The notes below the pieces were generated by a model, which worked only from the letters and a program-made list of their open reading frames with translations, had not been told where the DNA came from and did not search any database. Positions 2,304-26,300 of a stretch of 64,000 bases of DNA are shown here, piece after piece. Made by a program: the position numbers and the translations under genes. The DNA comes from the human T2T-CHM13v2.0 reference genome, Homo sapiens. Where the stretch lies: NCBI RefSeq assembly GCF_009914755.1, contig NC_060938.1; one strand, 5' to 3'. How positions within the stretch are numbered: the first letter of the stretch is position 1; the number at the start of each line of letters is the position of its first letter.

Positions 2304-2481
2304 TAACCTGGGGGAATGCCACTGACAAGGTATTTTATTTGCAGCCTCTTTTGACATCATGACATCTTACTTAAAGACAGAGAAACAAATGGAAGCTAAG
2401 GAAAAAGCTTTTTAGTTAACCTATCCTACCTCTAATAAAGTATGATATTGAAAGAAATCTCTACTAAAAATACAAAAATAT

Positions 2482-2960
<479 letters not shown>

Positions 2961-4260: not shown

Positions 4261-4399
4261 AACTCCCATTCATGGGTCTGATGTTTTTTAAAATAAATAA
4301 ACAAGAAATATACAAGACTTATTTGTACAGGACTTATTTGAAGCAAAGTTTGAAAATCTACTGAGACACATAAAAATCTGTTAGAACACAGGACAGAAA

Positions 4400-4870
4400 G
4401 TACATAAAGATGTCAATTTCCCCAAACTTCACCTCCAATTTCAGTATTCCCAATCAATATTCAGTATTCAATAAAAATCTCTATGATTTCTTTTTGAATG
4501 TCACAGAATGATTCTAAAGTTCATCTAGAAGAACACATAGACCAGAATTGTCAAAGTCTGAAAAAAAAAGAGAAATGAACAGGTAATTAACCCCATCTGT
4601 ATTAAAATTATAAAATGATAGTAATTTAAAGTGTATGGTAATACACGAGAGACCAAAATAACAAGACCAATCAGAAATAGTCCCAAACACATTTAGTAAA
4701 TGACAAAAGCTGCAATTCTAATAGGGGGGCAAAAAACAGATTATTCACTAAATGGTGCTGACACAACTAGCTAGATGGGGTAGAATTCACACACAATTTT
4801 ATCCCCCAAAATATGTCTCACTTCTTATACCAGAAATAAATTCCAGACGGATCAAAGAATTAGAAGTTTT
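4400..4870 (+). mobile_element. Old L1 (L1ME-like) ORF2 fragment
   Basis: AAAGATGTCAATTTCCCCAAA, ATGATTCTAAAGTTCATCTAGAA, AAATAAATTCCAGACGGATCAAAGA. Confidence 0.6.
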
Positions 4871-5219
4871 AAAAAGAGAAGGAAAAGGAAAATAAAGAAA
4901 CCATTGAAGTATTAAATACAATCTGGGGACTTCTTTGTTTTAAAAATACAAAAACACATGCAGTTAAAAAGTCTTCCTCTCACTCATTCTTCCTACTATG
5001 ACAACCAATGTTTCCAAGTATCATATATCCTGTGATATACAAGCAAAAATGTATACATTGTTTTTCATCTTTAAAGCAAAGACACATAGAGGCATATAAT
5101 GTTCCTCACTTTGTTTTTCTAGTTTAGTAGCTAGGTGAATATTTTACATTTTGGAGCAAGGAAAGTCTTAAGTAGAGCACAAAACACAAAAGTCACATAA
5201 ATAAATTAATAACAGTCAC

Positions 5220-5375
5220 AACTAACATTTATTATTTACTTACTTTGTGCCAGCCATTATGCCTAATGCTATTTACATTATCTCCATTGTACAAATAAGG
5301 AAATTAAGGTGTACAGAGGTTAAATAATGTGCCCAAGGTCCCACAGCAGCACAGTGCTGGGTTTGGATTTATCTG
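5220..5375 (-). mobile_element. MIR
   Basis: MIR core-like CCATTGTACAAATAAGGAAATTAAGGTGTACAGAGGTTAAATAATGTGCCCAAGGTCCCACAGC. Confidence 0.7.
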
Positions 5376-5439
5376 ATTGCATAACATTACAAAAGAATAG
5401 CTAGGGGGATATGTGCACACGTACGAAAAAAGTGAATAA

Positions 5440-5773
<334 letters not shown>

Positions 5774-5873
5774 AAAAAAGTGAATATGTAGAGAACTTTT
5801 AACCTGTGAAAAACCAGTAACCCCAACAGAAAATAAACAAAGAACAAAAGTAGGCAATTTATAAAAGACATAT

Positions 5874-6302
<429 letters not shown>

Positions 6303-6693
6303 TCAGCCTCAATAGTGATTGACAAAAGGCCATCACATTTTTTCAGTTCCTAAATTGTCAAAATATTTTAAACTGTAATATCTAGTATTAGCCAGGGTAT
6401 GGGGCATATGTGAATACTATTGGTAGCTTTACAAATTGGTACAACAACCTTTTGGAAGGAAAATGTATAAATATCTATCCATATCTACATTATTCACATC
6501 TTTTGATTTCAGCAACTCCACTTCTAGGAATCTATCCTACAAAGCTGTTTGTATAAAGTACACAAAATACATATACATATGTACATGTGCATAAATAGTC
6601 ATACACACACACAATTGTTTACAGCTTTCTTTTTCTGGCAACAACAAAAAAATCCAGTGACCATAAGTTGATTAAGCAAATTATGGTATTTTC

Positions 6694-6983
6694 TTTTTTT
6701 GTTTGTTTGAAACAGAGTCTCACTCTGTCGCCCAGGCTGGAGTCCAGTGGCATGGCTCACTGCAACCTACACCTCCCAGTTTCAAGTGATTCTCCTGCCT
6801 CAGCCTCCCAAGTAGCTGGGATTACAGGCACATGCCACCATGCCTGGCTATTTTTTGTATTTTTAGTAGAGATGGGGTTTCACCATGTTGGCCAGGCTGG
6901 TCTTGAACTCCTGACCTCCGGTGATCCAGCCAGCTCGGCCTCCCAAAGTACTGGGACAACAGGTGTGAGTCATCGTGACTGGC
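6694..6983 (-). mobile_element. Full-length AluSx-like
   Basis: Antisense dimer; TSD AAATTATGGTATTTTC. Confidence 0.93.
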
Positions 6984-7740
6984 AAATTATGGTATTTTCA
7001 TGTACTAGAAATGGGGTATTTAAGTTGCTGTTAATGATTGATAGAGGTAACTCTGAAATAAATAGACAAACTTGCAACAGTAGTATATAAAAGAATAGTA
7101 TATTATGATCCCATAATTTAGAAAATTATACAAACACAGAAAAAAAAACTGGAAGAATATGCAGCAAACTCAGTAGATTACATCCAGGAATTTCAGTATA
7201 TATAAAAAATAATGTATTACTTACAATTAGTGAAAGATCAAATTTTAAAATAGCATATCCTCCTTCATGCATTAAAATGATTTTGTGTGAATATAAAGTA
7301 ACTTCTTTCTCCCCCCTCAACAGAATGTATATACTCCTACATCAGGTATATTAATGTTCTGCATATTTTAGGTTATAACTCCTAGATAGCACGTTTTGAT
7401 TTCATTCCAAATACCTCCAAATACATAAAAGTTATTGTAGTTAAAAATGAATTTAAAAATATTAAAAGTAATGCAAAGTTAAACATCTTTGAACAGAAAC
7501 TCAAAGTCCTGATGATGACTACTTAAACATTTTCAAAATTACATTAATCTCCATGTTATTGCCAAGGGAAATGAATTGCCTAAAACAAATTACTCTGAAT
7601 GTGAACAGTGTATGACAGTGATAATGGCAAGAAGAATGTCTGTCAGTTCAACCAAGTATGGGGTAAAGGGGCAATCTATAAGCATAAAGGTGACTCTCAT
7701 CATAAATCTGAATCAAATTTTGCTAGAAAAATGTAACCTT

Positions 7741-8050
<310 letters not shown>

Positions 8051-8234
8051 AGAAAAATGTAACCTCCATATATTTGGTTTTGATTATCAGTTTATTTATG
8101 TATAACAAATAAAAAAGACAGCCAAACAGCCCAAATTTTGTTCCTCGAGTACACTGTAATGGGGGAAAGAAATCCAAATAAGTTGGGAATCTTGACTTTT
8201 CCTTTACTCCTGACGAATCTACTTAAGAATTTAA

Positions 8235-8631
<397 letters not shown>

Positions 8632-8841
8632 AATCGTCCCATATTTCTAACTCCCAGTTTTTTCCTAGGATTGAAATTACTCCGAAATTCCCTGCATATA
8701 TAAATTAAAACATTATTGCTTTCTAATATTATCTAGAACTATGAGTGCTGTCTAGGATGAACCAATCCCATATTTACTTTCTCTTCCTCCCCCAAATCCC
8801 AATAAACAGAACTTTTTTTTCTTTTTTAAAGAAATGCTTTT

Positions 8842-9128
8842 AACTGGGCTCAGTGGCCCGCACCTATAATCCCAGCACTTCAGGAGGCCAAGGTGGGAGG
8901 ATCTCTTGAGCCCAGCAATCTGAGGTCAGCCTGGGTAACATAATGAGACTCTGTTTCTACAAAATAAAAGAAATTGACCAGGTGTGGTGGCACACACCTG
9001 TAGTCCCAGCTACTCAGGAGGACCGTGTGAGCCCAGGACTCGGAGGCTGCACTGAACCATGATCACACCGCCACACTCCAGCCCGGGCAACAGAGAGAGA
9101 CCCTCTCTGTAAAAAAGAAAAAAAAAGA
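8842..9128 (+). mobile_element. AluJ
   Basis: GGGAGGATCTCTTGAGCCCAG and GAGGCTGCACTGAACCATGATC (J diagnostics). Confidence 0.88.
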
Positions 9129-9732
9129 AACATTTTGATAATTTACTAATTACAGCTATGTTAGTCACTGACATTGGTGAAATTTCTACCTGTTTTTTAA
9201 TTTCCAAAAACTATTCAGCATCAAACTGCCATATGTTTATCAGACATCTTCTACAGCATCCACACTAACTCTAGCTGCTAAGCTCTTTTATGCATTCAAC
9301 AAGTATCTACTACTCCTTGGCACAGGGTGTTATTCTGGGAGTGAGAAAAGAGGAAAAAAAAATTTAAAAACTCAGATACAGACATGCCTACAAAGGGCTT
9401 ATGGTCTAGAGGCAAAGGATCAAGAGTTTCCAGAAAAAGAAAATATACATTTTGGAGAAGAGGGAATAGGAGAGACACTTCCTGGATGACGTAATATGTG
9501 ATCAAACCCTTGAAAAATAGGATAAATTTAGATGTAGTAGAGTTTGGAAGATAAGGGAGGAAAGGAGTATTCCAGAAACAAGCATAGTAAGAAGAAAAAA
9601 CAAATAAAAAATTCTTCTTAATGCAACACAAAATAGCCCAAGTAGAATAAAGAAATATGCCATGCTTCAGTATTTATGTAAAGATTATCAGCTTAATGAA
9701 AATATGCCTTTTCCTTTACAATAAATTTTACA

Positions 9733-9880
9733 GGCTGGGCATGGTGGCTCATGCCTGTAATCCCAGCACTTTGGGAGGTCATGGTGGGAGGATTACTTGA
9801 GCCCAGAATTCAAGACCAGGCTGGGCAAAACAATCAGACCCCATCTCTATTTTTAAAAAGTTAAAATAAAACAAAATAAA
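9733..9880 (+). mobile_element. FLAM / AluJ left monomer
   Basis: Single monomer GGCTGGGCATGGTGGCTCA...GACCCCATCTCTA plus A-rich tail. Confidence 0.85.
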
Positions 9881-9956
9881 TTTTATAGCATGTATACATA
9901 CAGAAAATATTACAAATGAGCTTTTTGATGTAAAAAAATTCATAAAGAATACAGTC

Positions 9957-10240
9957 GGCCAAGTGTGATGGCTCACACCTGTAATCCCAACACTTTGGGA
10001 GACCAAGGCGGGCAGATCACTTGAGGCCAGGAGCTCGAGATCAGCCTGGACAACATGACGAAACTCCGTCTCTAAAAATACAAAAATTATCCAGGCATGG
10101 TGGCATATGCCTGTAATCCCAGCTACTTGGGAGGCTGAGCACGAGAATTGCTTGAACCTGGGAAGTGGAGGTTGCAGTGAGCTGAGATTCTGCCACTGCA
10201 CTCCAGCCTGGGCAACAGAGTGAGACTCTGTCAAAAAAAA
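9957..10240 (+). mobile_element. AluSz/Sx-like
   Basis: GATCACTTGAGGCCAGGAG, dimer, short tail. Confidence 0.9.
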
Positions 10241-10378
10241 ATTCATGTTTGTGCTATTTATCTAAGCATTTATATTAATATAACAATTGAAATCCTTCAT
10301 ACTTAAAAAAAATCCAGAAGTCTGAAAGTAGGCAAAACAAACAACAGCTAATTTATAAAATAATTTAACCTATTTGTA

Positions 10379-10504
10379 GGCCAGGTGCAGTGGCTCATGC
10401 TTGTAATCCCAGCACTCTGGGAGGCCAAGGCGGGAGGATCACCTGAGGACAGGAGTTCGAGATTAGCCTGACCAATACGGAGAAACGCTGTCTCTACTAA
10501 AAAA
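10379..10504 (+). mobile_element. AluSp-like left monomer only, truncated at the linker
   Basis: CTGACCAATACGGAGAAAC...TCTCTACTAAAAAA followed by non-Alu sequence. Confidence 0.88.
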
Positions 10505-11170
10505 TGATTTTAACACTGTCTTTATTTCCCAAAGATCACTGAAGTCATGTTAAATAAAAGGCATTAGAGATTCTATTTTTCTGACAAAATATTTAAGAGA
10601 CTTCCTTTTCTTCTAAGCCAAGTAGTTAGGGCTCCTTTATATATCCATCATATACACAACACTTCTAGACAGGAAAAGATCTAGCAGTTGTTAAGTTTTT
10701 CTTTCTCATTTTATGAACCCTAACACAACTTCCACAGACTATCTATGACATGAACTTTCTGACTTTTCCTGTACTTCCCTCTTTCATAATTAGTCATTCT
10801 ACTTTAGGACAAAAATTTGCCATACAAGATCCTCTCATATAACATTTCTTTCCTTCACAACTTTTCTTACCATAAATACATCTTCATATCCACAACTTTC
10901 TTTAGATCTCTCTCCCTGACTGATTTCTGATGCCCACCCAAACCTAAAAGGTCAGATAACACAAAGCAAAACAGAGGAGAGCTTTAGATTTTGAGAGAGA
11001 CCCGTCTGCCTGAAGTTCTTGGGGTTCCATGAGGACAACAGAGGTTTCTCCTAAAATGGGTTTTGTAGCACCTTCTGTTTTTCTTTAAGGAGTCCCAGGC
11101 TGTCAGAAATTACCTTAGGTCTTGTCATGTGGGCACTGAGTGGCAACAAGACAGACTAGGGAACAGTCGC
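10505..11170 (-). mobile_element. ERV1 internal fragment (MER4-group-like), no flanking LTR
   Basis: Motifs TTTAGGACAAAAATTTGCCATACAAGATCC, AAAAGGTCAGATAACACAAAGCAAAACAGA, TTCTTGGGGTTCCATGAGG and AAGGAGTCCCAGGCTG, recalled from MER4-group internal sequences. Confidence 0.6.
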
Positions 11171-12519
11171 AACATGACAGACAACTGAGCAGAAAAAAAC
11201 TTACTGCAGTCCCCACTGTAAAGATGGATAAACTGAGGCACCATGCAGTTTAAAAATTCATGTTACATAGAGTTGGGCTCCACAGCTCACTCTCTTAACC
11301 ATCCTGTAATTTTGCTGAATCTATGCCCAGTCACTGAAGTACTTGTACGGTACCTCATGGCCCCCTTAGAGCTTAGAACCTGGGTTTCATTCTTGCTCTA
11401 CAGCTATATAATTTAACAATTTTCCTCTGAATTTGTTGGATTCTAACCCTATATTTCTAAAATTTTATTAATATTACTGAATCTTAAAGGGAGCTGTGAT
11501 GTCTTTAGTTTTTAGAAATATTAAATCTATCAACAAAGGACTATATGAAGTTAAACTGTATTCAAATTTCTACATGCTTTAAAACTTTGAGGCAACATAT
11601 TAAGAAACACACCTAAGAAACTGCAACCAATCTACTCTGGACAAAAACTTAGATACTAACTCTTCAAAATAAGCTACCTAGTGGTATTTATACATATTCT
11701 TCCATATACCAACAGTATCTTACATGCTCATAGCCTTAAAAATAACTGAAGTGTCAGAATTATAGGCATTACACATTTCTGTTGGCTTGAAAAATGATAA
11801 AAAATGCATAAACTTCTAGAGTGATCAGTTTAATAAAAGAGTTCATACCAAAGGTAATAATACTAGGAATCAAAGAGGGCTAAACACTGCAGGTTCTTAA
11901 AGGTGAAAGTTAATAAAACCTTGTTTTTGGTTGTGAATGTTTGCCTTACAACATTATACACATGATTCTCCCCTCTTCTTTTTCCTCTTGCAAAGATGTG
12001 TTGATGAACCCTTTGTTCATGCAGATGATAATACTCTTGAAAATGGTGGCAGAAAAAAAATTAAGGGAATATGGTTCACTTAATCATCTCATAAATTAGA
12101 ACTTATTACCCCTGTGACTCTTGCATAGCTCCAGAAAAAAGTGTGAGAGAGATGAAATGGCTGTTTGCTACCAATATTTTATGTGATGCTTCATTTTTTG
12201 ATTCCTTGAATAACACAACACATTAGTCCATTTATGCCAGAGGTTGCAATTTTTTGAATTTTTGCATAAGTGAAAAATCAGACCTTTTCGATGACATTTA
12301 ACAGTAGGATATAAGTAATTTCCACATGCTTAGCATGGAACACTAGGCATAAATGGGTTAACACAATTATGAAAGCATAACTATTCAAGTAACTAATTAT
12401 ACAACTCATTTTTTTTCCTCATCTCTAAAACATAGTAAGGGATCAGTTATTTAAAAAACACAACAGTGACAAGTATTTTATTTTTAACTCAGTTTTGGTG
12501 GTTAAGGCCATTGCTTGGC

Positions 12520-12640
12520 ATAAGAATACAAAAACAGGAGGAGAAACAAGAATACAAACATGAAATAGAAGCAGTAGCAAAAGAAAATGAAGAGGAACAA
12601 GAAAATGAGAAGAAAACACAATGGAAGAAAGGAAAAAGAA
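12520..12640. repeat. GA-rich low-complexity tract
   Basis: GAAAATGAAGAGGAACAAGAAAATGAGAAG... Confidence 0.7.
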
Positions 12641-13326
12641 CAGGTGTGGGAATTAGAAGGCCTATCATATAATACTTTTTATCCCCTCCTCGATTCATAA
12701 AATTTGAGTAACTCCAAGAGTATCACAACAAAAAACAAGCAAAAGGATACACAAATAGTCACTAAATTTTGTTAAGAATGAGATAATGCTGCCACTCATG
12801 CCTAGCTCAGGCACCGGCAGGAGGAGGGCACACTCCAGAGATTGCAGGAGAAGGGGGAGGACTCCTCTTTGCCCTAGGTGTACCACCACCACTGCCACCG
12901 AGACCTTCGTTACAGCACCCACAGGTTCCTCCCCACCCCAGAACGGGATGGGCCCTGCAGTGCTCCTACTCCCCCTTCCCGGCCCCCAGACTTCCTACTG
13001 CTACCACCACTAGCACCAATGCCAATACAACCAGTCACCCTCAATGTACCAGCCCACTCTACCAGGCTCCTACCACCAAGCCCCCGTGGGTGCCCTCCTA
13101 CCGCTCCATTCTAGCTATGGTCTCCATCTCCACCACCAACTGCATGAGGCAAGCTGCAGAGCCACGGCATCTGCTCAACCATACCACAGGCGACTCCTCC
13201 TTCTCCTTCTTCAGAGTGGCTTGGAGCAGCTGGGCAGGCAAAGCCAGAAAAGCCCAAAACAGGACTCAGGGATTGGAACCATTAGAGCCTCACCTCGTTA
13301 GGCTGGTGACTGGGTGTCAGGGATCA

Positions 13327-13434
13327 GTTTCATTGAAGGCACTCACACCCACCTTCCAAAGTCCAACCTCTCCTTCTGGCAAAAGCTGGCCAGGAACTGG
13401 GGCCTGGGGTGGGAGTGAGTGCCTTCACTGAAAC
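13327..13434. repeat. Inverted repeat / hairpin with 27-bp arms
   Basis: 13327-13353 GTTTCATTGAAGGCACTCACACCCACC vs reverse complement of 13408-13434 GTTTCAGTGAAGGCACTCACTCCCACC (25/27). Confidence 0.9.
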
Positions 13435-13844
13435 AGGCCCTTGGCCAAGTACACCTGGCCAGGAATTGCTGGGCCCACCAAGGCTGTCCTCCTCCGGGAG
13501 CCTGCGTAGGAGAAACTAAGACCCAGCCAGCCCTCCCCACCAAAGGGCTGGTTCCCATTCCTGACACCTCCACCAACAGTGCCCTGTTTCCCACTTCCCC
13601 CATGGTGCCTACTACTCCCTGCCCGGTAGTCCCACGTGATCTTCGCAACACAAAGCATGAGGGCAGGCTGGGAAACCACAGTGGGTGTGGAGGCCCTACC
13701 ATGCAATCCAGCTCGAGCAGAAGAAAATCGCCTTCTAGAGTCTGGAGTCTGAGAAGAAGAAAACGATACCTTACTTGGAAGCTACGAGAAGAAGGAAGCC
13801 ACTGCTGTCACTGCTGCTGCCACCTCACCAGCTCGCCAATGCCA

Positions 13845-14410
13845 CTGGCAGTGTAGCCCCCATGGCACCCCTAATCTGCCCCCTGCCACTAGCAGTGTAG
13901 CTCCTGGATAACACATCCAACACACCCTACAGTTTCAGGCAATGTAACCCCAATACCCCCTGACAAAAACACTCCCCCCACACCTCAGGGAGCATACCAC
14001 CCAATAGTGCCCACAATCTGACCCAGCCACAGGCAGTTCAGCTCCTAATGGTGCACCCCTCCAGTCACAGTGTAGCACCCAACAACGCCCCTAAACCACC
14101 CCCCCGCCAGCATTGTAGCCCTGGATAACTCCACCCAACCCACTCCCTGCTGCGGGCAGTGCAGCAGAAAATAGCGCCCCTAATCCTTCCCCAGCCACCA
14201 GCAATACAAGCTATTGTACACAATCTGCCTCCCCCCACCACCCCTGCCACCACAGGCAGTATAGCCCCAGATAGCCAGGCAACCTGCCCCACCACCAGCA
14301 ATGCAACCCCGGAGAGTGTCCCCAACCAGACCACTGCCACAGGCATGGTAGCCTCTAGCAGTGAACCCCAATAGGACACCCAACCCTTGCCCCCAGAGGC
14401 ATACAGGGCA
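13845..14410. repeat. Degenerate ~43-47 bp C-rich minisatellite (~13 units)
   Basis: Recurrent RGCAGTGTAGCCCC-like core at ~13847, 13891, 13938, 14032, 14067, 14109, 14155, 14254, 14297, 14357. Confidence 0.75.
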
Positions 14411-14427
14411 GGCCCGGAAAAACTCAC

Positions 14428-14757
14428 CTACCCCATCACATTTCTACCACTGTGGCTGAGCTGCAGTCTCCGATGTCACCACCAACCACAGCGAGGCGAG
14501 CCATGGTGGCACAGGTTCCAGCCTCCAGCATGTGGCAGTGCCTCTTCCTTCTAGTCCTCCAGCCCAGCAGGAGAAGCTCCTGCTGCCGAATGCTCTCCTA
14601 CTGCTCTATCGCCACCACCAACTGCAGCGAGGTAGTGACCCAGGTTCCAGGCTCCATCCATCCTCCACCCTCCAGCAGGCGGAAGATTGCGGCCTCTTCC
14701 AGTCCTCTAAGCTGGGCACAGAGTTGCTCCTCCACTCGACACAGAAGAGTCTGAAAT
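14428..14757 (-). ncRNA. Putative first exon of a leftward spliced non-coding/pseudogene transcript
   Basis: Inr-like TCATTTC (A at 14757) 31 nt downstream of TATATAAA; consensus donor TAG|GTGAGT at 14428/14427; no credible ORF. Confidence 0.55.
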
Positions 14758-15047
14758 GACCTGACGCCACCTCAGCATCCTTTATATATGAGGTTATGCA
14801 AATGCAGTTCCTGGACTGCATGTCTTGATTGGATGAGAAAAAAACCTCTAGGCCTACTCTGATTGGACTTTATTTTCATGCTGTGATTGGTTGTGTTAAG
14901 ACTTGCTCTCATCCAATCAGAACATGATCATAAAGTCCAATCAGAGTAAGCCTGGAGGTTTTTTTCTCATCCAATCAAGACATGCAGTCCAGGAACCTCC
15001 ATGGGCACTACCGCAGTACATAAATGATGCTGAAGTGCGATCACTTT
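14753..15047. promoter_or_regulatory. Palindromic bidirectional Pol II promoter (6 CCAAT boxes, octamer, TATA, Inr)
   Basis: GATTGG at 14827, 14861, 14885; CCAATC at 14913, 14937, 14971; ATGCAAAT 14796-14803; TTTATATA 14781-14788; TACATAAA 15017-15024; arms 14807-14873 and 14930-14996 are 65/67 complementary. Confidence 0.75.
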
Positions 15048-15210
15048 TTTTCAGGTTCCTGTATCTTCATGTCGAGTTGCTCATTGCCCAACGTAGAGGA
15101 CTAGGAATCAGGATTCGGTGGCTATATGCTGGAGGCTGGAGCCGCGGGAGCGCGGCTCGCCTCATTGCAGTTGTTGGCAGTGACGGAGAGATAGCATCGC
15201 GGCTGGAGAG
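15043..15210 (+). ncRNA. Putative first exon of a rightward non-coding transcript
   Basis: Inr-like TCACTTT at 15041-15047; inverted homolog of the leftward exon; small CpG cluster; possible donor GAG|GTAGGA at 15210/15211. Confidence 0.4.
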
Positions 15211-16440
15211 GTAGGAGAAGGAAAACAGTTTTGGGATAGATAGAGGGGAGCAAAGAGGGTAGTTAGGGCCAAAGGGAAAAAAGGATAGCTTAGCCAGAGA
15301 AGGAATTGAAAAAAGATGGTGGTGAAAAGATGGTGGGGAAAAAGGTTTTTGCGTAGATGGAGGTGTAATAACAGGGTGGGGAGTGGGAGGGAAGGAAGGT
15401 TTTGCAGAAAGACGGTGGGTAAAAAGTTTAAGGGTACATGGAGGGGGAAAAGAGGGTGGCAAGTGGGCGGAGGAAAGAGAGGGAGGTGATGGGGGAAAAC
15501 GGGTGGAGCAGTAGGGAGAGAAGGTTTTGTGAAAAGACAGTGTGGAGAAAATGCAGTGGGGGAGAAAAGTTTTTGGGTTGAGCAAAAGAGGGTAGCAAGT
15601 GGGAGAAGGAAAAAGAGGGTAGCCAGCAGGAGGAAGACAAGGTTTTGTGAAAAGACAGTGGCAGAAAAGAAAGACAGTGAAGAAAGAAAAAGACAGTGGG
15701 TGAAAAGTGTTTCGATAGATGGAGGGAGGAAAGAGGGTGGTGAGAGGTAGCAGGGATGGCGGTTGGGAAAACAACAGAAAAATAGTTTGGGGTAGATGGA
15801 GGGGAAAAAAGAGGGTGGCAAGCAGGGTAGGGGAAAAAACAGCACTAGTGGTAAAGGGGGGAGACTTTGAAAAGGTGGTGGGGAAAGTTTTGGTGTGTAG
15901 ATGGAGGGGGAAAGAGAGAGGTGGATAGGCGTGGGGAGAAGGCTTTGTGAAAAGACGGGGGAAATGTTTTTGGGTAGATGGAGAAGGGAAAGAGAATGGC
16001 AAGGAGGAACGGGGGGAAAGACGATGAAGAAAACAGTTTTTGGTTGGATGAAGCGGGGAAAGAGGGTAGTGAGCAGCAGGAGTGGAGAGAAGGTTTTGGG
16101 AAAAGACGGGGGAAAATGTTTTTGCTTAGATAAAGGAGCAAAAGAGATGGTTGAGAGAGCAAAAGAGATGGATGAGAGCGGGATGGGGAAAAAGAGGCTG
16201 GCCAGGGATAAGGGGAAAAGACAGTGGGAAGAAACTGGGGAAAGGGTTTGGGTAGATGCATGGGGAAAAGGGTGTTGAGCAGGAGAGTAGAGGCAGCTTT
16301 GTGAAATGAGGGTGGGCAAAAAATGATGAAGAAGTTTGGGGGCAGATGGTGAAAGAAAAAGAGTGGTGAGAGGGAGGGGGCCAAAGGCCGCCGGGAAAAG
16401 AAGGTAGGGAAATAATGGTGGGGGACAAAGGTTTGGGGTA
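15211..16440. repeat. Purine-rich degenerate tandem repeat (~70-120 bp units)
   Basis: Repeated GTTTTGGGTAGATGGAGGGGGAAAAGAGGGTGGCAAG and AGAAGGTTTTGTGAAAAGACGGTGGGGAAAA-like motifs; C-poor on the + strand. Confidence 0.85.
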
Positions 16441-17220
<780 letters not shown>

Positions 17221-20200
17221 TGGAAACGTAACTTTATTTTTTAGTGTTGTATTTGTATATATACTTTAATAGCCCTGAGTTTTAATAAAGTTGCTTTTAA
17301 AATATGTATCTTATTTTTCAGAAATATACCCTAAGGCATGTGATTAGTTGGGTGGCATGTTTAGTTTTTACAATTGAAGGATTGTCATTCCTTTGTACAA
17401 AAAAAAAAAAAAAGTGAATTTTTGTCATATACTAGAGGAAAGAAGGCAGATACTAAATAATAAATATTGTATGCTTTCATGTAAATAAAATTTGAAATTA
17501 TATAAAGACAGAATGCATTAAACCTTTCTGGGGTTGAAGTGGGGAATTCATTGGTAAAGGTCGTACAATAAATGTGTAGATGAAGGGAATATTCTATATT
17601 TGATTGTGTAGGTGGTTAACTAGCTTCATAAATTTGTAAAACTGAACTGGACTAAAATGTGTGCCTTATACGCAGATTATTCTATAAAATTGATTAAAAC
17701 TAGTTAGAGAATCAGTCAAGGGGAAAAGAAAGAAAAGCCACGTGAAAAAATAATGAAAATGCACTAGAATTATCTTTGATGACATTAAATATAGCCTGGT
17801 CTTCTCTTAATTGTTTTTAAAATTTATGTAGGTTTCTCAATCCTTTGATATTTTTTCTTCAACACATCTTACATTCTCATATATGTTAATGTATGGCTAC
17901 ATAAGGGAGGGCTCTCTTACAGTTGGACTGGAATAGCTTAATATTTATATCTAGAAATGCATTGGAAGCATAACACTGACCCGTGAGCAAGATGAAAATG
18001 GCATGTGCTAGTTAGTGATTCATAATATATTGCTTTAAGTTTAATGCCAACTGGTCTACATCGTTGAGAATGTTTAGTTTGATGGTTTACACAACTTGGC
18101 TTAAGTATATGACCAACAATGTATGAGGGAGCCTGCTATAAAGACTTTTCTGCACTTCCCTTAAATTATTATAGTAAGCTCAAATCTTGAAGGTTTATAA
18201 TATACAGATAAAATGTGTCTGTGAGACTGAGAAAGGATCTTTAGGGAGAAAGGCTCTGTTCCCGAAAGACAGACTTTCAATGATTTCCTGCATTTTATTT
18301 CTGTCGTACTTTACCTTTATTAAACACTAATAAGGTGGTTCTTATAGGGCCTCATAGGCCTTTTTAGTTTTCCAACCTATTCATACTTGGTGCAAACCTA
18401 GTAATTTTTTGCGTGATAGTATTGGAATTTTATTCTGAGGCTAGGCTTCACACTGTAAAAACAGCTTTTTGGAATTGTATCATTTCCAGTCTTTCCATCG
18501 TGTTCCACTGTCGCAGCTACACACCAGATATGAAGACTACAAGCAACCTCAAAAGGTAACACATCTATAGTAGATGCTTTTACCTCTTGTAAAATCTAAG
18601 GAAAATATACTAAAAATGAAGGCATCAGTAAAATAGTATCATTTTAGGTTGACCTCCAGTATTTCAACATCATTCTAGCTTCAGAGCAATACATTTGCAA
18701 GGGGAAATGGGGTACTTTTGTGGTTTTTTACACCTGTTATTTCAGTTGAAATTGAAAAAAACTAATTTGAACTATAACCATAAAAAGGTTTTATCAGTAT
18801 TGAAATAAAATAACAAAATGCATTTGTGGGTCTGACCTCAGGACGGATTTTCAATAGTCAATACTACCTCTAACTCTCACTCCCCCTTCTCTGAGCATCA
18901 GCTTTATTCTTATTCCATCTTACTTAATTTGGCACTGACAGATACAGACTCATTCTTACAACATATACCATCAGAAGTGAAACCTTCACTGTCTCCAACT
19001 CTTAAAAATCTGAGATGCACTTTGACTATTCTCAGATCATGGGTCTATTACTTGGATCAAAAAGTACTGCACAGGGACAGTTTCAAGGTTGGAGTGACAA
19101 AGGAATAGCTCCCTAATGAGGGAGTATCATAGAAATGATATTTCCATGGTCATACTTTTGTGAACTAGGCAGACATCCCTTCATGTCAACTACATTTCTA
19201 CTTTGAACAGATAAATATTCATGCATATACAACATTATACAGTAATATAAGCATGACTTTTCATTAAAATTTTAACCAAAACAGTCTATTTAGGTGAATA
19301 AATACCGATACAGGAGATAGTTGTGCTTGAATGATCTTTACCCTTGGGGAGACATAAAGGAAAGAATGTCATACTTTATTATGAAATGACTGTCCAGCAT
19401 ATTTATGAGTAAACTTTCATAATAAATTATTGTCTAAAGTAAGCACAAAAATCCTTTTAATATCCTCTTTTAATACATAGAATAAATATAAGAAAATAGC
19501 ACAAATGGTATTATGCCAGCACACAGAAATACTTGCAGTTAAAAGTCAATCCTATATTTTGAGAACTTGACAAAATCATAATTGAAAATAATGTATTGTC
19601 TTACATGCAGATGTTGTGTAATCAAGGACATCCAAATCAACTTACATCCAAATGTTTCACAATTAGTCTTATTCTGTGAAGTATTATAAAGCCATGCCCT
19701 CAGGAATATAAAAGCACAAAGGGAGCCAGGACTCCAAATAGCCATTTATTCATTTCCTAAGGTTAGGTACAGTGAGGACTGCATTTTCAACATTATCAGG
19801 GCCATAGAGACATTGGAGCTTAAGGATAAGATCCAATTTCATACCAATCTGTAAAAGGATAAGCCAGTGTAATGACCCAGATGTTCACCATAATAATTAC
19901 CATCTTGAGTGATGATGCTATGAATACAAAGGAACACTGCATCTCTAAAACAAACTACATTTATGTGACATGAGACCAATTTTTGATGGAAACAAGGCAA
20001 ACTGTGAATGGTAATTTTGTCTTTTTAGTTGTTTTCATTGTGTGTATTCATATCTGAAAATACAATAGCATATAATTAGAAAAGTTATAACAAAATAAAA
20101 TAAGATTAGAAGTCTTAACTTTTTATATCAAACGTTCTGCACACAAATATAGCCTTTTACTGATGATCTATGGCTCCAAAATATTGGTAGCTATAATTAT

Positions 20201-20959
20201 GCTTTGTAAAACAAGCTATGAATGCCTTACTACAGAAAGACACAAAGAATCATTTCCTTACTCACTCACTGCTAGTAGACCCTGAGGCACAGCATTTCCT
20301 GCCCAGATACCTGATTATTAATCCAGTTTTCGTTAGGGGTATACTAACATTAACTAACGGAGATCGGTACTTAAACCAGTTAATGTAAAGAAATGCTGTA
20401 GGAACTGAAATATTCCTTTTAAATTAACAAAAGTGTTCTTTCTAGATAGACAAAGTTACATGAGGACCCAAATGTATACCAGAAAATCATTTGATGAATA
20501 TGGAATTAATAAAAGAATGCTTTGTTATATGGTTTTAGTACTTTGTTGGTGCCAGGTTAAAGACATGTGGCCCTAGATAGGATAACTCTACAGAAGAGAA
20601 TTTAATTTGTTTACCTGCTTCACTAGAAATCCAACAATTAAGTCAGTGACTCTATTTTCCAATATTCATTTCCTCCATTTTCTCATCTCTTTTTGATGGT
20701 ATCATTTCGTTATTTTATTTTCTTTGAGATGGAATTCATTTTGGCTAAAATGACTTTTTGACTATTTGTGTGTGTATATATATGATTTTAAAATCAATGA
20801 ACAGTATTATTTCTTTATTTCGAAGATTATCCCTCTATGTTCTCTAAAGTCGATACTGTGAAACAGTCCAGATATGAGTCTAGGAATGGCAGTAGGAAAT
20901 ACTGTAAAACTGGAAGCAACTTAATAGGTAATCAATAGGGAAAATGAAACTCAATATAA

Positions 20960-22950
20960 TTGACTCTAGGTAATGTAATGATGCATTTATTTTACATTTT
21001 TCTTGCATTCCTGAGATAAGTCCTGCCTGGTTATAGTATATTATATGTTTTATGTTTTGCTGGATTTTGATCATTAGCATTTTGCTGAGGATTTTTTCCA
21101 TCTATTTTTGTTAAAGATATTGTTCTGTGTTTTTGTTTTCTTTTTTTTTTTGATGCTATTGTCTGTTTTTGTTATTAGGGTAATACTAGCTTCATAGAAT
21201 AAACTGGGAAGTGTATTCTCTTTTTTTTTTTTGCAAGAGTTTGTAAATAATTGTATTAATTCAACTTTGAAGGTTTGGTAGAAGCATTCTTGGCTAGAAG
21301 ATTTTGTTGCTGTTGTCATTGTTTCCTGAGGTGGTAGTTTTGATTACTAAATCTCTTTACTTGATAAGATTTTATATTTCTCCTTGACTCATTTTTGCTA
21401 ATTTGAATCTTTCTTAGAATTTGTCCAGTTCTTAAAAAATACCTAAATTTTAGATATATTTTTTCATAGGTACTTTTATAATAATTTTTTATTTCTTTAA
21501 GTTTAGTGTCCTTTTAAAAATTTCATTAATACTTGAATAGTTTCTCTTTCTTGTTGATCGGTCTATCTAAATTGTGGCCACTGCTGATGTGTTCAAAGAA
21601 ACAATTTTTGGCTTTGTTGAGGATCTCAATTGTTTCTGTATTTTCTATTTCACTAATTTGTATATCCCTAATACTTTCTTGTGGTTGCTGTAGTTTTAAT
21701 TTGCTGCTCTTTTTTCAGTGCCTTATGGTGGCAGGTTAGAGAATGTTATTTTTGAGTATGAGAACTACATTTATTGCATCACATAAGAGATATTATGCAT
21801 TCTTAAAGTATTTTATCTTTTTTAAAGTATTTTCTAATTTATCTTACTACTTCTTCTTGGGCCCATTGTTTATTTAATAGCATGTTGTTTAATTTCCACA
21901 TAATTCTGAGTTTCCCAAATTTTCCTATTGCTGATTTATTATTTTACTCAATTAATGTCTGAAAATATACTTTGTATTATTCCAATGTTTAAATTCATTG
22001 AGGTCTATTTTATGGCCTGGGATATGGTATTCCTGGGTAATGTTGTGTGTGCACTTGAGAATCTACTGTTGTTACAGTGTTCTTTAAATATCTAATCAGT
22101 CTAGTTATTTTATAGTATTGTTCAAGTGTTCTATTTCTTTATCGATCTTCTGCATAGTCATTTTATCCACTTTTGAAAGTGAGTATTAAAGGCTGCAAGA
22201 AGTATGTTAAATTGTCTAATTAATCTCCATTTTTGGAGGTTTCTACGTCAATGGATTTTGAAGGCTTTTCATCACACATATATATGCTTATAATTATTAT
22301 TTATTTTTGAGATATTGGACCTTTATTTTTATGAAATATCTCCCTCTACCTCTGTAACCCCTTTTGTTTTAAAGTCTATTTTTTTCTGATGTTAATATAA
22401 CAATTCCAGCTTTCTTGCGGTTACTGCCTGCATCATATAACTTTTCCATCCTTTTTTTCTATGAATTTTCATCTTTGGATCTAAAGTGTGTCTCCTGCAG
22501 ACAACATGTGGATGGATCTTCTTTATTTAATTTGTTTTTCCTCCAGTCTGACAATCTTTTATTTGAATATTTAAATTCATTTTCACATGAAGTTACTAGT
22601 ACAGTTAGATTTACATCCATCATTTTACTTCAGTTTTCTGTATACCTTATGTCTTTTCATTCCTCTATTCCTCCTTTACTGCTTTCTTTTGAATTAGGTA
22701 TTTTTTATAAAACATTGAATTTAATAATATTTTATCTATGTTTTTTCAATGTTTCCCTGAATTGCTACTTTAGGGTTTACTGTAGACATCTTATCACAAT
22801 CAATTGTAGATGCATAACAATTCTAGTGCCATATGTATATATAAATTTTACTTTTGTTCACTTTTGTGTACTTTGGCTCTCCTTTTTGTGCTATTGTTGC
22901 TGTACACATTACATCTATATTTGCTATATACCCAATAATTTATTGTTTAT
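20960..22950 (-). mobile_element. Old L1 (L1M) ORF2 fragments
   Basis: Antisense L1 text; ORF 21074-21319 (FYQTFKVELIQ...LPSLFYEASITLITK) is a decayed L1 ORF2 reverse-transcriptase-proximal segment. Confidence 0.8.
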
Positions 22951-22959
22951 GTTACTTGA

Positions 22960-23330
22960 TGATATGGTTTGTTGTTTTGTCCTCTCCAAAATTCATGTTG
23001 AAACTTAATTTCAATGTGACAGCATTAAGAGCTGGAACCTTGAGGGTATGATTAGGCTATTAGGGCTCTGTCCTCATGGATGGTATGAGTGTGTTATAGA
23101 AGGGCTGGAGGGAATTAGGACCCTTTGCCTTTTCATTCTTTCCACCATATGAAAATACAGCATTCATCCCCTCTGGAAGATGCAGTGTTCAAGGCACCTC
23201 AGCAGACACCAAACCTGCCAACAAATTGATCTTAAACTTCCAGCCTGCAGAACTATGAGAAATAAATTTCTTCTTTAAAAATTTCTCAGTCTCTGATATA
23301 TATATGTATCAGCATGAACAGACTAACACA
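22960..23330 (+). mobile_element. MaLR solo LTR (MSTC/MSTD-like)
   Basis: TGATATGGTTTG...GACTAACACA termini; perfect 5-bp TSD CTTGA. Confidence 0.88.
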
Positions 23331-26300
23331 CTTGACGTAATTTTATGTCTTAAAAAAAGAGATAAAAAGAAACGTACTATGTATTTACAGCTTTTGTTAT
23401 ATTAACAGTCTTATTTATTATTTCAGGTCTTTTCATTTGTTCAGCATTTGAAACTTCTTCCTGACACCAGAGGGGCTCTTCTTAGCTGTCTTTTTCCTGG
23501 GTTATTCCTGGTAAACTAGCTGATATTTGTTTCAAAGCATATGTCTCTAATAAAGTGCCAGTCTCTCTTATTTGCTTTTTACCATCACTTCATTGTTTTT
23601 CAAAGTACCCTTATGGTTGAATTTCCCCAAACTCTTCTTTTGGGAAAAGCTTTACACTCTCTGCTCTATGTTCTGCCCCTTCCTTTGGGCAAAGCTTCTG
23701 AGCTTTGGCTCTGGTGATTGCAGCAAAGAGAGCAGCATTCTCCTCTCGGAGTGACAGCCCTTCCTGGAGACTGGGTCACTGGGATGAGAAGTAGCCATTG
23801 GTAATCTCAGCTTGCCACTCCTGGAATGAGAACTTTGCCTTACAGACAAACCAGAAAGAAGGCAATCAGAGCTCAATGTTCTCAGTGTGTTGCACCCAAA
23901 CAGTCCTCATTCCATGAATTAGAGCTGGTAGGAAGAAGTGACATCCTACTTCTTGGCCACATTCCACAAAAGCTTAATCTCAAGAACAGGTAGTGGCAGT
24001 AGGTGGGGGTTGAAATGAAAAATTCTGATGTACTATTACTCCCAGAAAGATGCTATAGCCCCCCAGTGGGGTCTAGTAAAAGTTCTGTGTTCTTGGCTAC
24101 ATTGCCTTGAGTAGAATTTATATCAAGATAGTCTGTGAGAAAGAGAGGTAATAATGGGTTGTGGATAAAATGCAAAAAAACTCTTACTGTTCTTAGTTTC
24201 AGTAGATTTTCTTGAATAAATACTTCATCATTTTCTATGTACCATTAAGACTTTTCAAGTGACATAGGTGATGGTTGTTGTATAATTTTCAACAATTTTA
24301 TAAAAGATTCATGGAGCTCTTCACATAGCCATTCTAGAGGTGGAACTTCAGCATTTCTTATTTAAGGAAATTAAGGTTTTCTTTAATTTCTCTCCCTTCT
24401 TCTAAAATATGCTTTCGAATCTCACTCTCTACAGCAAATTGGGTCTCAGTATATTTCTTTCTCCAAGAGAAGTCTGTTAGATACTCAAATAATTTTTGTT
24501 TTACATTGTTATGTTTGAAAGGTTGTTTTGTTGTTAAAAGACAATAGGAAGATCAACATGAAATCCTCACGCTCATTGTATGAATATTATGTTTTCATTC
24601 AGAAAGAGTTACAATATATTTGAGTGCTCATGAAGCTTTAAAAAGAAGTGGATTAAGTAATCAATCTCCCTAGACAGATAAAAAAGCACATGATATTTTG
24701 GTATTCCCCAACTTTTATTATTTGACTTTCATGTTCTAGCAAATAACTTCCAACAATTTGTCAACTTACTTGCACAGTCATTTATATTTTATATTATTAA
24801 TTCCATTATTTATGCATGTGTCAAATAGACTTTAATATATAGAGTAGATGTTGACACACTCAAATTTGTAACAAAGTGAAAAATTACTTTGATACATATT
24901 TCTTTTTTTCTGACAAAATTCTGAAGTGCTTTTCCATCTCTTCTAAAACAACATATAGAAAACATGTTTTTTTCTCATTATTAAATACATGACTCGCAAT
25001 ACAGCAAAATTAATTGGCTATAAAGCAAACCTTTAAAAGAGAATAGTTTGGTGAAAAATATAAGCATTCTTAGTTATACATAAGATCCCACAGAGCCAAT
25101 TTAACTTTTTATTCCAGATTTATGTCCCAATTTAAAACTTTAATTCCTACTGTCTAAGCATTGTGGCTAAAAGTATGAGATAATTAATTACTCCTGACAT
25201 CCAACTTTTGTGATCATAGTAGGTGACATTCCTTTGAAAAAACTTGAAAATTTTCTGCTAAATGTTATGTTTGTGTATGGGTGTAGAGTTTCATTTTCAA
25301 AACAAGCTCTCACATATAAAAGTTAAGTGTTTTAATTATCTTTTAAGACTATGTCCTTGGATGCTATGCTGTATGCCAATATTTATACATGTTGAATATG
25401 CTTTCATTTAACTTACATAGCCATAATGCTTAACTTTAAGCAGAGATTCCTTATTAATTCTGATGAATGTTGCTAGAAAATACGCTGAAAATAAAATATG
25501 TTAGAATGATTTTTAATAAAAAGATTAAAGGAAAGAAGCTAGCAGAAGAGCCAGCACCACAGAAAGCAAAGTCACATTCTGGATCCAAGCAATGTTTCCA
25601 TGAACAAAGAACCAGCAAATAGAATTCATGAGATGGAGCAGAAGCAAGAGAGTGAAGAGGAAGTAGACTTTTTTTTTGTTTTTGTTTTTTATTTGTTTTC
25701 TCATGAGAAGAGTGTACTAGTAGTAGAAATAACTTCTATGAATGAGACCAGAAAGACATAGGTAGAATATCTGGACCATCTGTATAGGATAGGTAGTTAT
25801 TGTATTGTGTGTTCTGGAGGTAAGATTTATATAAATTCAAGCCTACAATATTATCAAGGTCCGTTAAGCAAGCATCCATTAGACAGCAAGAAAGACTAAG
25901 AGGCTTTCAAACTACCAGTGTCAATAGTTAAATGTGAAGCAAATATATAGACATTTGGTACTATGACAAAAAATAATAATGAAAGGTTTATCATAATATA
26001 ATATAATATTTTGTTCTCCTGTTTGGTAATTATATAAAGGTACATACTAGTTTTTCAAAACTTAACTAATCCTCTTTAAATATATTTCTATGAAATCTCC
26101 TGCTATACTTGGGAAACAGTTTACAGTGTGAACTCATTTTGTAGGATTTTTTTTTAAAGAATCATGAAAGAATAGCGATAAATTTAAATAAGTTTGCCAG
26201 TTGAATCATGTATGTGATAAAAAGGCTTTATATTTCTGATTCCTAAATCAGGGCATGACAGTACGAATCATAAATCAATTATTCTTATGTCCATTGTACA

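What the first reader, a model, noticed from the sequence alone, without database searches (positions are those of the whole stretch)
14700..15110. Fold-back palindromic bidirectional promoter made by inverted duplication of one promoter plus first exon
Seen: symmetry axis at ~14901 (AAG-A-CTT). Arms 14807-14873 and 14930-14996 are 65/67 complementary, with weaker pairing through to the centre. Homology continues outward: TATATAAAGGATGCTGAGGTG vs TACATAAATGATGCTGAAGTG, TGTCGAGT in both, and TGCCCAGCTTAGAGGACT vs TGCCCAACGTAGAGGACT. There are six symmetric CCAAT boxes, the outer pair in each arm 34 bp apart. Inference: an NF-Y-driven head-to-head promoter that could extrude a cruciform and produce two divergent RNAs with related 5' exons. 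This is the best candidate for an undescribed system in the window.
Basis: partly seen in the sequence, partly recalled or inferred. Interest (0 to 1): 0.8.

Follow-up and report, generated by a model that had tools for sequence, protein, structure and literature searches.

The report
Palindromic promoter core of REP522 repeat
The palindrome is real, but it is one copy of an already catalogued human repeat family (REP522) whose conserved centre looks like a two-way promoter with six CCAAT boxes, not a new system.

Summary
Six TGATTGG/CCAATCA boxes lie symmetrically, spaced 34/24 and 24/34 bp. Weaker inverted homology spans 14604-15188.

The palindrome is not unique to this locus. The T2T genome holds at least 45 copies, mostly pericentromeric or acrocentric, inside a shared 4-6 kb unit. 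The inverted duplication predates all of them.

Two diverged chr15 copies carry the miR-5701 sequence at their centre. A T2T miRNA preprint places mir-5701 in the 'Rep522 repeat'. A FANTOM5 meeting abstract describes REP522 as '~1.8 kb, largely palindromic, unclassified', and strongly enriched for cancer-activated CAGE promoters. So this is most likely the REP522 core.

The left arm has CCAAT x3, an octamer and a TATA box 26 nt upstream of the annotated lncRNA start at 14762. The core evolves about twice as slowly as its flanks, and the CCAAT boxes are its most conserved columns.

NF-Y binding and right-arm activity are inferred. The right TATA is degenerate here and no transcript is annotated on that side.

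Verdict: a known repeat with published promoter use. My additions are the six-box architecture and its conservation.

The parts
10503..16570 (.). Shared duplicon unit that carries the palindrome. The part common to most old copies is about 12500-16570.
   Evidence: BLAST of window 5000-25000 against 20 ten-kb paralogous loci. Homology starts at 10503 in 4 loci and ends at 16567-16575 in 8. All 20 loci cover 14750-15000, and none has non-Alu homology beyond 17250 at under 86% identity.
13830..14360 (-). C-rich (G-rich on the transcribed - strand) degenerate repeats of about 44 bp, in intron 1 of the lncRNA.
   Evidence: Direct-repeat families D6, D9, D10 and D12. GC skew is -0.38 to -0.47.
14428..14762 (-). 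Annotated first exon of the predicted lncRNA LOC105379562. The splice donor GT lies at 14427-14426 on the - strand.
   Evidence: Hub annotation. The 9-mer around the donor is identical in 17 of 33 aligned copies, and most of the others keep the AC/GT dinucleotide.
14477..14685 (.). Tandem duplication of about 136 bp inside the left arm's transcribed part. It explains why outer inverted matches are offset.
   Evidence: Direct pairs D16-D18 with spacing 129-147. Inverted pairs I2, I3 and I9.
14604..15188 (.). Full extent of the imperfect palindrome: promoter plus about 150 bp of transcribed sequence on each side.
   Evidence: Minus-strand self-alignment, 69.9% over 601 columns. Outward alignment.
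14780..14788 (-). TATA box of the left promoter (TATATAAAG on the - strand). Its first T is 26 nt upstream of the annotated start at 14762.
   Evidence: The CTTTATATA core is kept in most of the 33 copies.
14796..14803 (+). Octamer ATGCAAAT (ATTTGCAT on the - strand), between the TATA box and the first CCAAT box of the left promoter.
   Evidence: The overlapping 8-mer is identical in 12 of 33 copies. Majority bases of the right arms show a related ATGTGCAT.
14807..14893 (.). Left core arm, with three TGATTGG boxes at 14826-14832, 14860-14866 and 14884-14890. These are CCAAT boxes at about -66/-70, -100/-104 and -124/-128 from the start at 14762.
   Evidence: Box conservation is 28, 32 and 25 of 33 copies.
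14870..14888 (+). Position homologous to mature miR-5701 of the chr15 paralogs. It matches 15 of 19 here (mismatches at positions 6, 10, 12, 14). The mirror site 14915-14933 (-) matches 16 of 19.
14894..14909 (.). Non-palindromic 16-nt spacer with the symmetry axis at 14901. It is conserved among copies.
14910..14996 (.). Right core arm, with three CCAATCA boxes at 14913-14919, 14937-14943 and 14971-14977.
   Evidence: Conservation is 27, 23 and 26 of 33 copies.
15017..15024 (+). Degenerate TATA box of the right arm (TACATAAA). The most common 10-mer among the other copies keeps the T. The mirror-image start would be near 15043, but none is annotated.
   Evidence: Over window 15019-15028, TATAAATGAT occurs in 11 of 33 copies and the window's CATAAATGAT in 1 of 33.
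15200..16500 (+). Purine-rich (76% purine, 41.5% G, 6% C) degenerate repeats of about 70-140 bp spacing, flanking the right arm.
   Evidence: Direct-repeat families D1-D5, D7 and D8. GC skew is +0.70 to +0.79. Composition.

Best explanation
Window 14604-15188 is the palindromic centre of one copy of the low-copy human repeat REP522. The copy sits in a 4-6 kb duplicon that spread by segmental duplication to at least 45 mostly pericentromeric or acrocentric places. Each arm is a TATA-type promoter facing outward. Reading outward from the axis, an arm has three CCAAT boxes with NF-Y-type flanks (24 and 34 bp apart), an octamer, a TATA box, and a start site about 26 nt further on. The two arms share the six-box array. 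In this copy the left arm drives the predicted lncRNA LOC105379562. The right arm has a weakened TATA and is probably weak or silent. By inference, NF-Y (possibly with an Oct factor) opens the element when heterochromatin is lost, which would fit the published REP522 RNA peak at the 8-cell stage and in cancers. Shown here: the structure, the copy family, the age of the palindrome, motif conservation and the TSS/TATA geometry. From papers: REP522 is palindromic and carries CAGE promoters. Inferred: NF-Y binding, bidirectionality in this copy, and the silencing/activation logic.
For: Family: 82 matches on both strands give 40 places, plus 2 chr15 places and 3 truncated chr9 places. The chr13 and chr21 twins are 411/411 identical in the core and 99.6-99.7% over 3.4 kb.
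Age: orthologous arms are more alike between copies (L-L 0.834, R-R 0.815) than the two arms are to each other (0.744), so the palindrome is ancestral.
REP522 link: the two primer-derived pieces of miR-5701 lie contiguously at L041:4995-5013 and in L042, inside diverged copies of this palindrome. The T2T miRNA preprint says hsa-miR-5701 overlaps the 'Rep522 repeat'. [quoted passage not shown] REP522 is more than 2-fold enriched in lncRNA exons.
Promoter: the TATA box is 26 nt upstream of the annotated start, with the boxes at about -66 to -128.
Constraint: in 13 independent sister pairs the core differs at 78/2193 sites (3.6%) against 806/11075 (7.3%) in the flanks, p = 1e-11. Box columns deviate 0.043 against 0.101 for other core columns, p = 5e-4. 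19 of 33 copies keep 6/6 CCAAT pentamers and 27 of 33 keep at least 5.
Against: No RepeatMasker or Dfam library was available, so REP522 identity rests on a chain: homology to the mir-5701 loci, one sentence in a preprint, and a descriptive abstract.
That abstract gives 1.8 kb. Another paper calls REP522 'mostly telomeric'. Here the shared unit is 4-6 kb, the palindromic span is 585 bp, and most copies are pericentromeric.
The lncRNA model is only predicted. No CAGE, PRO-cap or NF-Y ChIP data could be consulted.
The right arm has a degenerate TATA and no annotated transcript.
CpG observed/expected is 0.15-0.24 on the left, as expected for DNA methylated in the germline, so the copy may be silent in most cells.
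Slower change in the core could partly reflect a lower mutation rate or gene conversion. Against the AT-rich distal part of the unit, the core is more conserved in 7 of 7 loci, but by only 1-12 percentage points.
One copy (L014) has a disrupted core and reverses the trend.
Confidence: 0.75

Rival explanations
1. It is primarily a small-RNA (mir-5701-type) hairpin gene. Transcripts crossing the palindrome fold into a long hairpin that is diced, and the promoter-like motifs are incidental.
For: The centre of two chr15 paralogs holds the miR-5701 sequence. The RNA fold of 14800-15002 is -140.1 kcal/mol, z -21.4. A 2026 preprint reports miR-5701 detection and target repression in HEK293 (passages).
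Against: The window copy matches the mature sequence at only 15/19 and 16/19 positions, with seed positions changed. An 87-nt-arm hairpin is far longer than a canonical pre-miRNA. The hairpin lies upstream of both outward-facing start sites, so the element's own promoters would not transcribe it. Rfam gives only sub-threshold hits to unrelated hairpin families (45 bits against a gathering score of 100). The T2T preprint lists mir-5701 among putative miRNAs that merely overlap repeats. Conservation peaks on the CCAAT boxes rather than on the miRNA position.
Confidence: 0.07
2. It is an inert relic. An ancient palindromic repeat sits in heterochromatin, its promoter-like motifs are not used in this copy, and the lncRNA model and apparent constraint are artefacts of prediction, mutation-rate differences or gene conversion.
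For: The transcript is 'predicted'. CpG is depleted. The BAGE-locus REP522 is H3K9me3-covered with no Pol II in liver. The core's excess conservation over the AT-rich part of the unit is modest. 14 of 33 copies have lost at least one CCAAT pentamer.
Against: The core changes half as fast as the flanks along 13 independent recent lineages, and the CCAAT columns are the least variable. Published CAGE work finds REP522 among the most cancer-activated promoters. REP522 RNA rises at the 8-cell stage. The annotated start sits at the distance from the TATA box expected for a TATA-driven start.
Confidence: 0.13
3. It is a fold-back DNA transposon (MITE-like), or two head-to-head LTRs, whose terminal inverted repeats happen to carry CCAAT boxes.
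For: Palindromic shape. More than 45 dispersed copies. Recurrent unit ends near 10503 and 16570.
Against: Homology among copies runs for kilobases beyond the palindrome on both sides, with different sequence on the two sides. The palindrome is therefore internal, not terminal. The arms are 200-350 bp of decaying identity with no defined ends. Copies cluster in segmental-duplication regions, often as near-identical pairs. The only description seen calls REP522 an 'unclassified interspersed repeat'. Target-site duplications were not searched for.
Confidence: 0.05

Closest known systems
REP522 (Repbase/RepeatMasker 'Satellite/telo'; described as an unclassified interspersed repeat of about 1.8 kb, largely palindromic)
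   Same: Palindromic. Low-copy and interspersed in duplicated regions. Overlaps mir-5701. Carries lncRNA first exons and promoters.
   Different: The match to the consensus was not run. Here the palindromic span is 585 bp inside a 4-6 kb shared unit. Only some paralogs (L040, L041/L042) are palindromic over 0.5-2.8 kb arms. Most copies found here are pericentromeric rather than telomeric.
hsa-mir-5701 hairpin loci on chromosome 15 (the chromosome band is recalled from miRBase, not from a call)
   Same: Paralogous copies of the same palindrome centre, 81-83% identical over 14815-14997.
   Different: The window copy lacks the mature sequence: 15/19 and 16/19 matches, with the seed changed.
NF-Y-dependent promoters with multiple phased CCAAT boxes, and divergent histone H2A-H2B promoters with CCAAT-octamer-TATA order (both recalled from textbook knowledge)
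   Same: CCAAT boxes with NF-Y-type flanks at about -66 to -128. Octamer immediately upstream of a TATA box. Two outward-facing TATA promoters sharing the CCAAT boxes between them.
   Different: No sequence homology to any histone locus appeared in the genome searches. No coding gene lies on either side. The symmetry here comes from an inverted duplication.
LTR12 (HERV9 LTR) NF-Y-bound repeat promoters (recalled; a Fleming 2013 abstract, seen only in a search listing, says NF-Y binds repetitive elements)
   Same: A repeat family carrying several CCAAT boxes that acts as a promoter when derepressed.
   Different: LTR12 has tandem boxes, not inverted ones. It is a retroviral LTR with thousands of copies and is unidirectional.
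PATRRs (palindromic AT-rich repeats of 22q11, 11q23 and 17q11; recalled)
   Same: Human palindromes in low-copy-repeat regions that are able to form hairpins or cruciforms.
   Different: PATRRs are near-perfect, AT-rich, several hundred bp long and lack a spacer. This core is 80/87 complementary with a 16-nt asymmetric spacer, which should hinder cruciform extrusion (inference).

Membership tests
REP522 | Sequence match to the REP522 consensus or Dfam model | not testable with these tools
   No Repbase or Dfam library is on hand. Rfam does not hold it.
REP522 | Largely palindromic organisation | tested here: met
   Inverted self-homology spans 14604-15188, with core arms 80/87 complementary. 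All 22 further ten-kb loci tested also show a central palindrome, 175-694 alignment columns long. L040 has arms of 2.8 kb.
REP522 | Unit size of about 1.8 kb | tested here: inconclusive
   The shared homology unit is about 4-6 kb and the palindromic span in the window is 585 bp. Which 1.8 kb the consensus covers is unknown to me.
REP522 | Contains the hsa-mir-5701 hairpin (the preprint says mir-5701 overlaps Rep522) | tested here: met
   Both primer-derived pieces of miR-5701 are contiguous in L041 and L042, at the centre of copies of this palindrome. Only 2 of the 22 genome hits of the 13-mer were fetched. None of the first 40 loci held either piece.
REP522 | Carries transcription start sites and lncRNA first exons | tested here: inconclusive
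   The hub's RefSeq table puts a predicted lncRNA start at 14760-14762, 26 nt from the TATA box.
NF-Y-dependent promoter | CCAAT pentamers with NF-Y-favoured flanks, about -60 to -130 from the start | tested here: met
   Six TGATTGG/CCAATCA boxes are present. The left-arm boxes lie at about -66 to -128 from 14762. They are the most conserved core columns.
NF-Y-dependent promoter | NF-YA/B/C occupancy and dependence of transcription on the boxes | not testable with these tools
   No ChIP data were available.
mir-5701 gene | Mature miRNA sequence present with an intact seed | tested here: not met
   15/19 on the + strand at 14870-14888 and 16/19 on the - strand at 14915-14933. Positions 5/6 of the seed differ.
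Fold-back DNA transposon / MITE | Inverted repeats at the ends of the mobile unit | tested here: not met
   The palindrome is central. Homology among copies extends 2-4 kb on the left and 1.6 kb on the right of it.
CpG-island bidirectional promoter | CpG observed/expected above about 0.6 with high G+C across the promoter | tested here: not met
   Observed/expected is 0.22-0.24 for 14000-14999. It reaches 0.70 only in 15000-15499. The core is 42% G+C.

The most novel reading that the evidence does not exclude
The REP522 core is a selectively maintained regulatory module. Six phased NF-Y boxes, plus an octamer, are arranged as a palindrome feeding two outward TATA promoters. Under this reading, NF-Y (with OCT factors) causes the family-wide bursts of REP522 transcription at the 8-cell stage, in embryonic stem cells and across cancers. 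The conserved asymmetry of the centre would mean that the DNA-bound protein array is what selection sees, not hairpin formation. In the held library no paper contains both 'REP522' and 'NF-Y' (0 papers). The primary CAGE papers (Kaczkowski 2016, Horie 2017) could not be read and may already contain a motif analysis.
Probability: 0.35. Interest if true: 0.5.

Novelty: already known. Interest (0 to 1): 0.3.

Why it matters
REP522 is a little-studied repeat that FANTOM5 work singled out as strongly enriched among cancer-activated promoters. It is also reported to peak at the 8-cell stage. A concrete promoter model for its core gives a testable cause for that behaviour. The model has six conserved NF-Y-type boxes, an octamer and two TATA boxes, and NF-Y is implicated in both settings (recalled). 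It also explains why a putative miRNA (mir-5701) maps to the upstream region of a promoter. For this genome scan, the main value is negative: the 'undescribed system' is a catalogued repeat that soft-masking did not flag.

Tried and rejected
- Rfam on the region, on five paralogs and on the whole window gave only sub-threshold hits to unrelated, mostly plant, miRNA hairpin families and a Phe leader. An example is MIR4372 at 45 bits against a gathering score of 100. Nothing reached a gathering score. I read these as generic hairpin matches.
- The first look for the miR-5701 primer pieces in the 40 loci then held found nothing. A genome pattern search then found two other chr15 loci.
- Pfam on 7 open frames of the unit gave 0 families, so I treat the unit as non-coding.
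- G-quadruplex idea: despite strong GC skew, only 1 canonical motif lies in each flank. Dropped.
- CpG-island idea: not met.
- A second copy of the unit elsewhere in the window: none found.
- The sigma-70 and terminator scan is irrelevant to a human promoter.
- A search for 'HSREP522' returned 0 papers.
- Kaczkowski 2016 is not held under its PubMed id.
- Paper reading closed, before the supplements of the NF-Y ChIP paper (PMC3730095) could be searched for REP522. Whether NF-Y ChIP peaks on REP522 are already tabulated there remains open.
- Tandem Repeats Finder did not report the GA-rich or C-rich flanks as arrays, because they are too degenerate. Only repeat finder families show them.

Full report
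OBSERVATION.
- The repeat finder reports one outstanding inverted repeat: arms 14807-14893 and 14910-14996, 87 nt, 92% complementary, 16 nt apart. It also reports weaker inverted pairs further out: 14701-14723/15080-15102, 14514-14536/15121-15143 and 14479-14502/15154-15177.
It finds each quoted string at mirror-image places.
- TGATTGG occurs 13 times in the window, which is what chance predicts for the whole window (12.97). Six of those lie in 14826-14977, three per strand, spaced 34 and 24 bp in each arm.
- The 203-nt centre folds at -85.9 kcal/mol as DNA, and 0 of 200 shuffles do as well (z -20.5).
- A minus-strand self-alignment puts the full inverted homology at 14604-15188, 69.9% identity.
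- The palindrome therefore covers the promoter-like part and about 150 bp beyond each predicted start.

IT IS A FAMILY, NOT A LOCAL EVENT.
- The window's genome is held. The 411-bp query gives 82 matches, both strands at most places, which collapse to 40 places including the window's own.
- Two more chr15 places and three truncated chr9 places bring the total to at least 45. This is a lower bound, because only 40 of 60-65 candidates were scored.
- Copies on chr13 and chr21 are identical in the core and 99.6-99.7% identical over 3.4 kb.
- Copies of 83-94% identity lie on chr17 (five), chr7, chr20, chr15 and chr9.
- Copies of 74-83% identity lie on chr2, chr22, chr14q, chr13q, chr5, chr18, chr21 and chr10.
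- Most copies are pericentromeric or on acrocentric short arms.
- Homology among old copies extends far beyond the palindrome. It runs from about 10503 (more commonly about 12500) to a sharp right end at 16567-16575. The palindrome is therefore the centre of a 4-6 kb duplicon.
- The two flanks differ. The left flank has C-rich repeats of about 44 bp (GC skew down to -0.47). The right flank has 1.3 kb of purine-rich degenerate repeats (GC skew up to +0.79; 76% purine).
- No open frame in the unit matches Pfam (0 of 7).

THE PALINDROME IS ANCESTRAL.
I aligned 33 of the 45 places: the window plus 32 loci. I left out the two identical twins and ten places that I never fetched. In this alignment the arm-specific differences are shared by nearly all copies. 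Left arms resemble left arms (0.834) and right arms resemble right arms (0.815) more than the two arms resemble each other (0.744). The inverted duplication therefore predates the spread of the family, and the arms have not been homogenised since.

THE CORE IS CONSTRAINED.
- Majority-base agreement is 0.89-0.94 in 14801-14950 against 0.52-0.81 outside 14801-15000.
- Against the window, the core (14815-14990) is significantly more conserved than non-CpG flank sites in 26 of 32 copies. The difference is not significant in 5 (the youngest copies). It is reversed in 1 (L014, whose right arm is disrupted).
- In seven or eight of those 26 copies the flanks are only 46-62% 'identical'. That means they are not homologous throughout, which inflates the contrast.
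- A cleaner test uses 13 independent nearest-neighbour pairs. The core differs at 78/2193 sites (3.6%) and the flanks at 806/11075 (7.3%), Fisher p = 1e-11.
- Within the core, the 42 box columns deviate less (0.043) than the other 134 columns (0.101), one-sided p = 5e-4.
- A more sober comparison uses the AT-rich, CpG-poor distal part of the unit. The core is more conserved there in 7 of 7 loci, but by only 1-12 points.
- All six CCAAT pentamers are intact in 19 of 33 copies, and at least five in 27 of 33.

PROMOTER ANATOMY.
- On the - strand the left arm reads outward as follows: CCAAT boxes at about -128/-124, -104/-100 and -70/-66; the octamer ATTTGCAT (14796-14803); then TATATAAAG, whose first T (14788) is 26 nt upstream of the RefSeq-predicted lncRNA start at 14762 (hub annotation).
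- The exon's GT donor at 14427-14426 is kept in most copies.
- Majority bases of the right arms show the mirror arrangement, a related octamer followed by TATATAAA.
- In this window the right TATA reads TACATAAA. Over window 15019-15028 (the TATA minus its first two bases) this 10-mer is seen in 1 of 33 copies, while 11 of 33 have the T form. No + strand transcript is annotated.
- The region is not a CpG island: observed/expected is 0.15-0.24 on the left.
- The CCAAT-octamer-TATA order and the shared-box divergent layout resemble histone H2A-H2B promoters (recalled). No sequence homology to them appeared.

IDENTITY.
- Rfam holds nothing relevant.
- The name REP522 began as a recollection, which I then tested.
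- A T2T miRNA preprint (passage read) lists 'hsa-miR-5701 (Rep522 repeat)'.
- The 3' ends of two miR-5701 primers printed in a 2026 preprint (passages read) were absent from my first 40 loci.
- The 13-mer occurs 22 times in the genome, twice on chr15. At those two places both pieces are contiguous (L041:4995-5013 and L042). They sit at the centre of an 81-83% diverged copy of this same palindrome.
- The window's homologous sites match only 15/19 and 16/19.
- Other passages report the following: REP522 is more than 2-fold enriched in lncRNA exons; it is up at the 8-cell stage and 'mostly telomeric'; it is H3K9me3-covered at the BAGE locus in liver; it is expressed in ESCs and lung tumours; and it is linked by Horie 2017 to cancer-specific lncRNAs (Horie 2017 and Kaczkowski 2016 themselves were not seen).
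- Some paralogs are palindromic over much longer arms: 2.8 kb in L040 and about 0.5 kb more in L041/L042. This fits 'largely palindromic'.
- I put REP522 membership at about 0.8. The consensus match itself could not be run.

MECHANISM.
- Most likely (0.75): a REP522 core acting as an NF-Y-type, TATA-containing promoter. It was ancestrally bidirectional. In this copy the left arm drives LOC105379562 and the right arm is weakened.
- The copy is probably silent in most somatic cells and derepressed in early embryos and tumours.
- NF-Y binding is inferred from motif quality, position and box-specific conservation. It was not measured.
- Cruciform extrusion is possible on energetic grounds, but the 16-nt asymmetric spacer and 7 arm mismatches should hinder it (inference).
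- Rivals are a small-RNA hairpin gene (0.07), an inert relic (0.13), and a fold-back transposon or paired LTRs (0.05).

NOVELTY.
The element is a catalogued repeat with published promoter activity, so I rate it 'already known'. What I did not find in print is the six-box NF-Y architecture and its conservation. A search for 'REP522' with 'NF-Y' returned 0 papers, and the 14 papers holding 'REP522' (passages read in 9 of them, with none found in the main text of a tenth) do not mention it. However, the two primary CAGE papers and all supplements were out of reach, because paper reading closed.

Noticed in passing
L040 (G000:C22:32581000-32590999), locus coordinates 1917-4588 vs 8305-5577: This chr22 paralog is a much larger palindrome, with arms of about 2.8 kb at 72% identity. 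The window's left-flank sequence (12460-13700) is present on both sides of the core. It could be either a secondary inverted duplication or a more ancestral, fully palindromic form of the element.
   Followed up: partly
window 14477-14538 vs 14613-14685: A tandem duplication of about 136 bp lies inside the lncRNA's first exon (left arm only). It offsets the outer inverted matches to the right arm.
   Followed up: partly
window 15200-16500: A 1.3-kb stretch is 76% purine (41.5% G, 6% C) with GC skew near +0.78. It is built of degenerate repeats spaced 70-140 bp apart that Tandem Repeats Finder misses. It holds only one canonical G-quadruplex motif despite the G-richness. It is conserved as the right flank in most old paralogs.
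   Followed up: partly
L001 (chr21:9.09 Mb) and L003 (chr13:12.02 Mb) vs window 13200-16610: The chr13, chr14 and chr21 short-arm copies are 99.6-100% identical over 3.4 kb. This is as expected for the recently exchanging regions shared by acrocentric short arms. Reads from this element cannot be assigned to one chromosome.
   Followed up: no
L014 (G000:C17:22754967-22758346): This chr17 copy has flanks 93% identical to the window, but its right core arm is disrupted: the Y5 box is deleted and Y6 is mutated. It is a natural 'half-promoter' allele for comparison.
   Followed up: no
G000:C9:43085800, C9:44378315, C9:77949096: Three chr9 places hold only the first 113 nt of the 176-nt core, at 94% identity. 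They are truncated copies ending near the symmetry axis.
   Followed up: no
window 12500-13700: This GC-rich part of the unit (up to 62% G+C) is conserved at 70-77% in 14 of 20 ten-kb paralogous loci. It contains long proline-rich open frames with no Pfam match. Exon 2 of some LOC105379562 transcripts (13700-13824) abuts it.
   Followed up: partly
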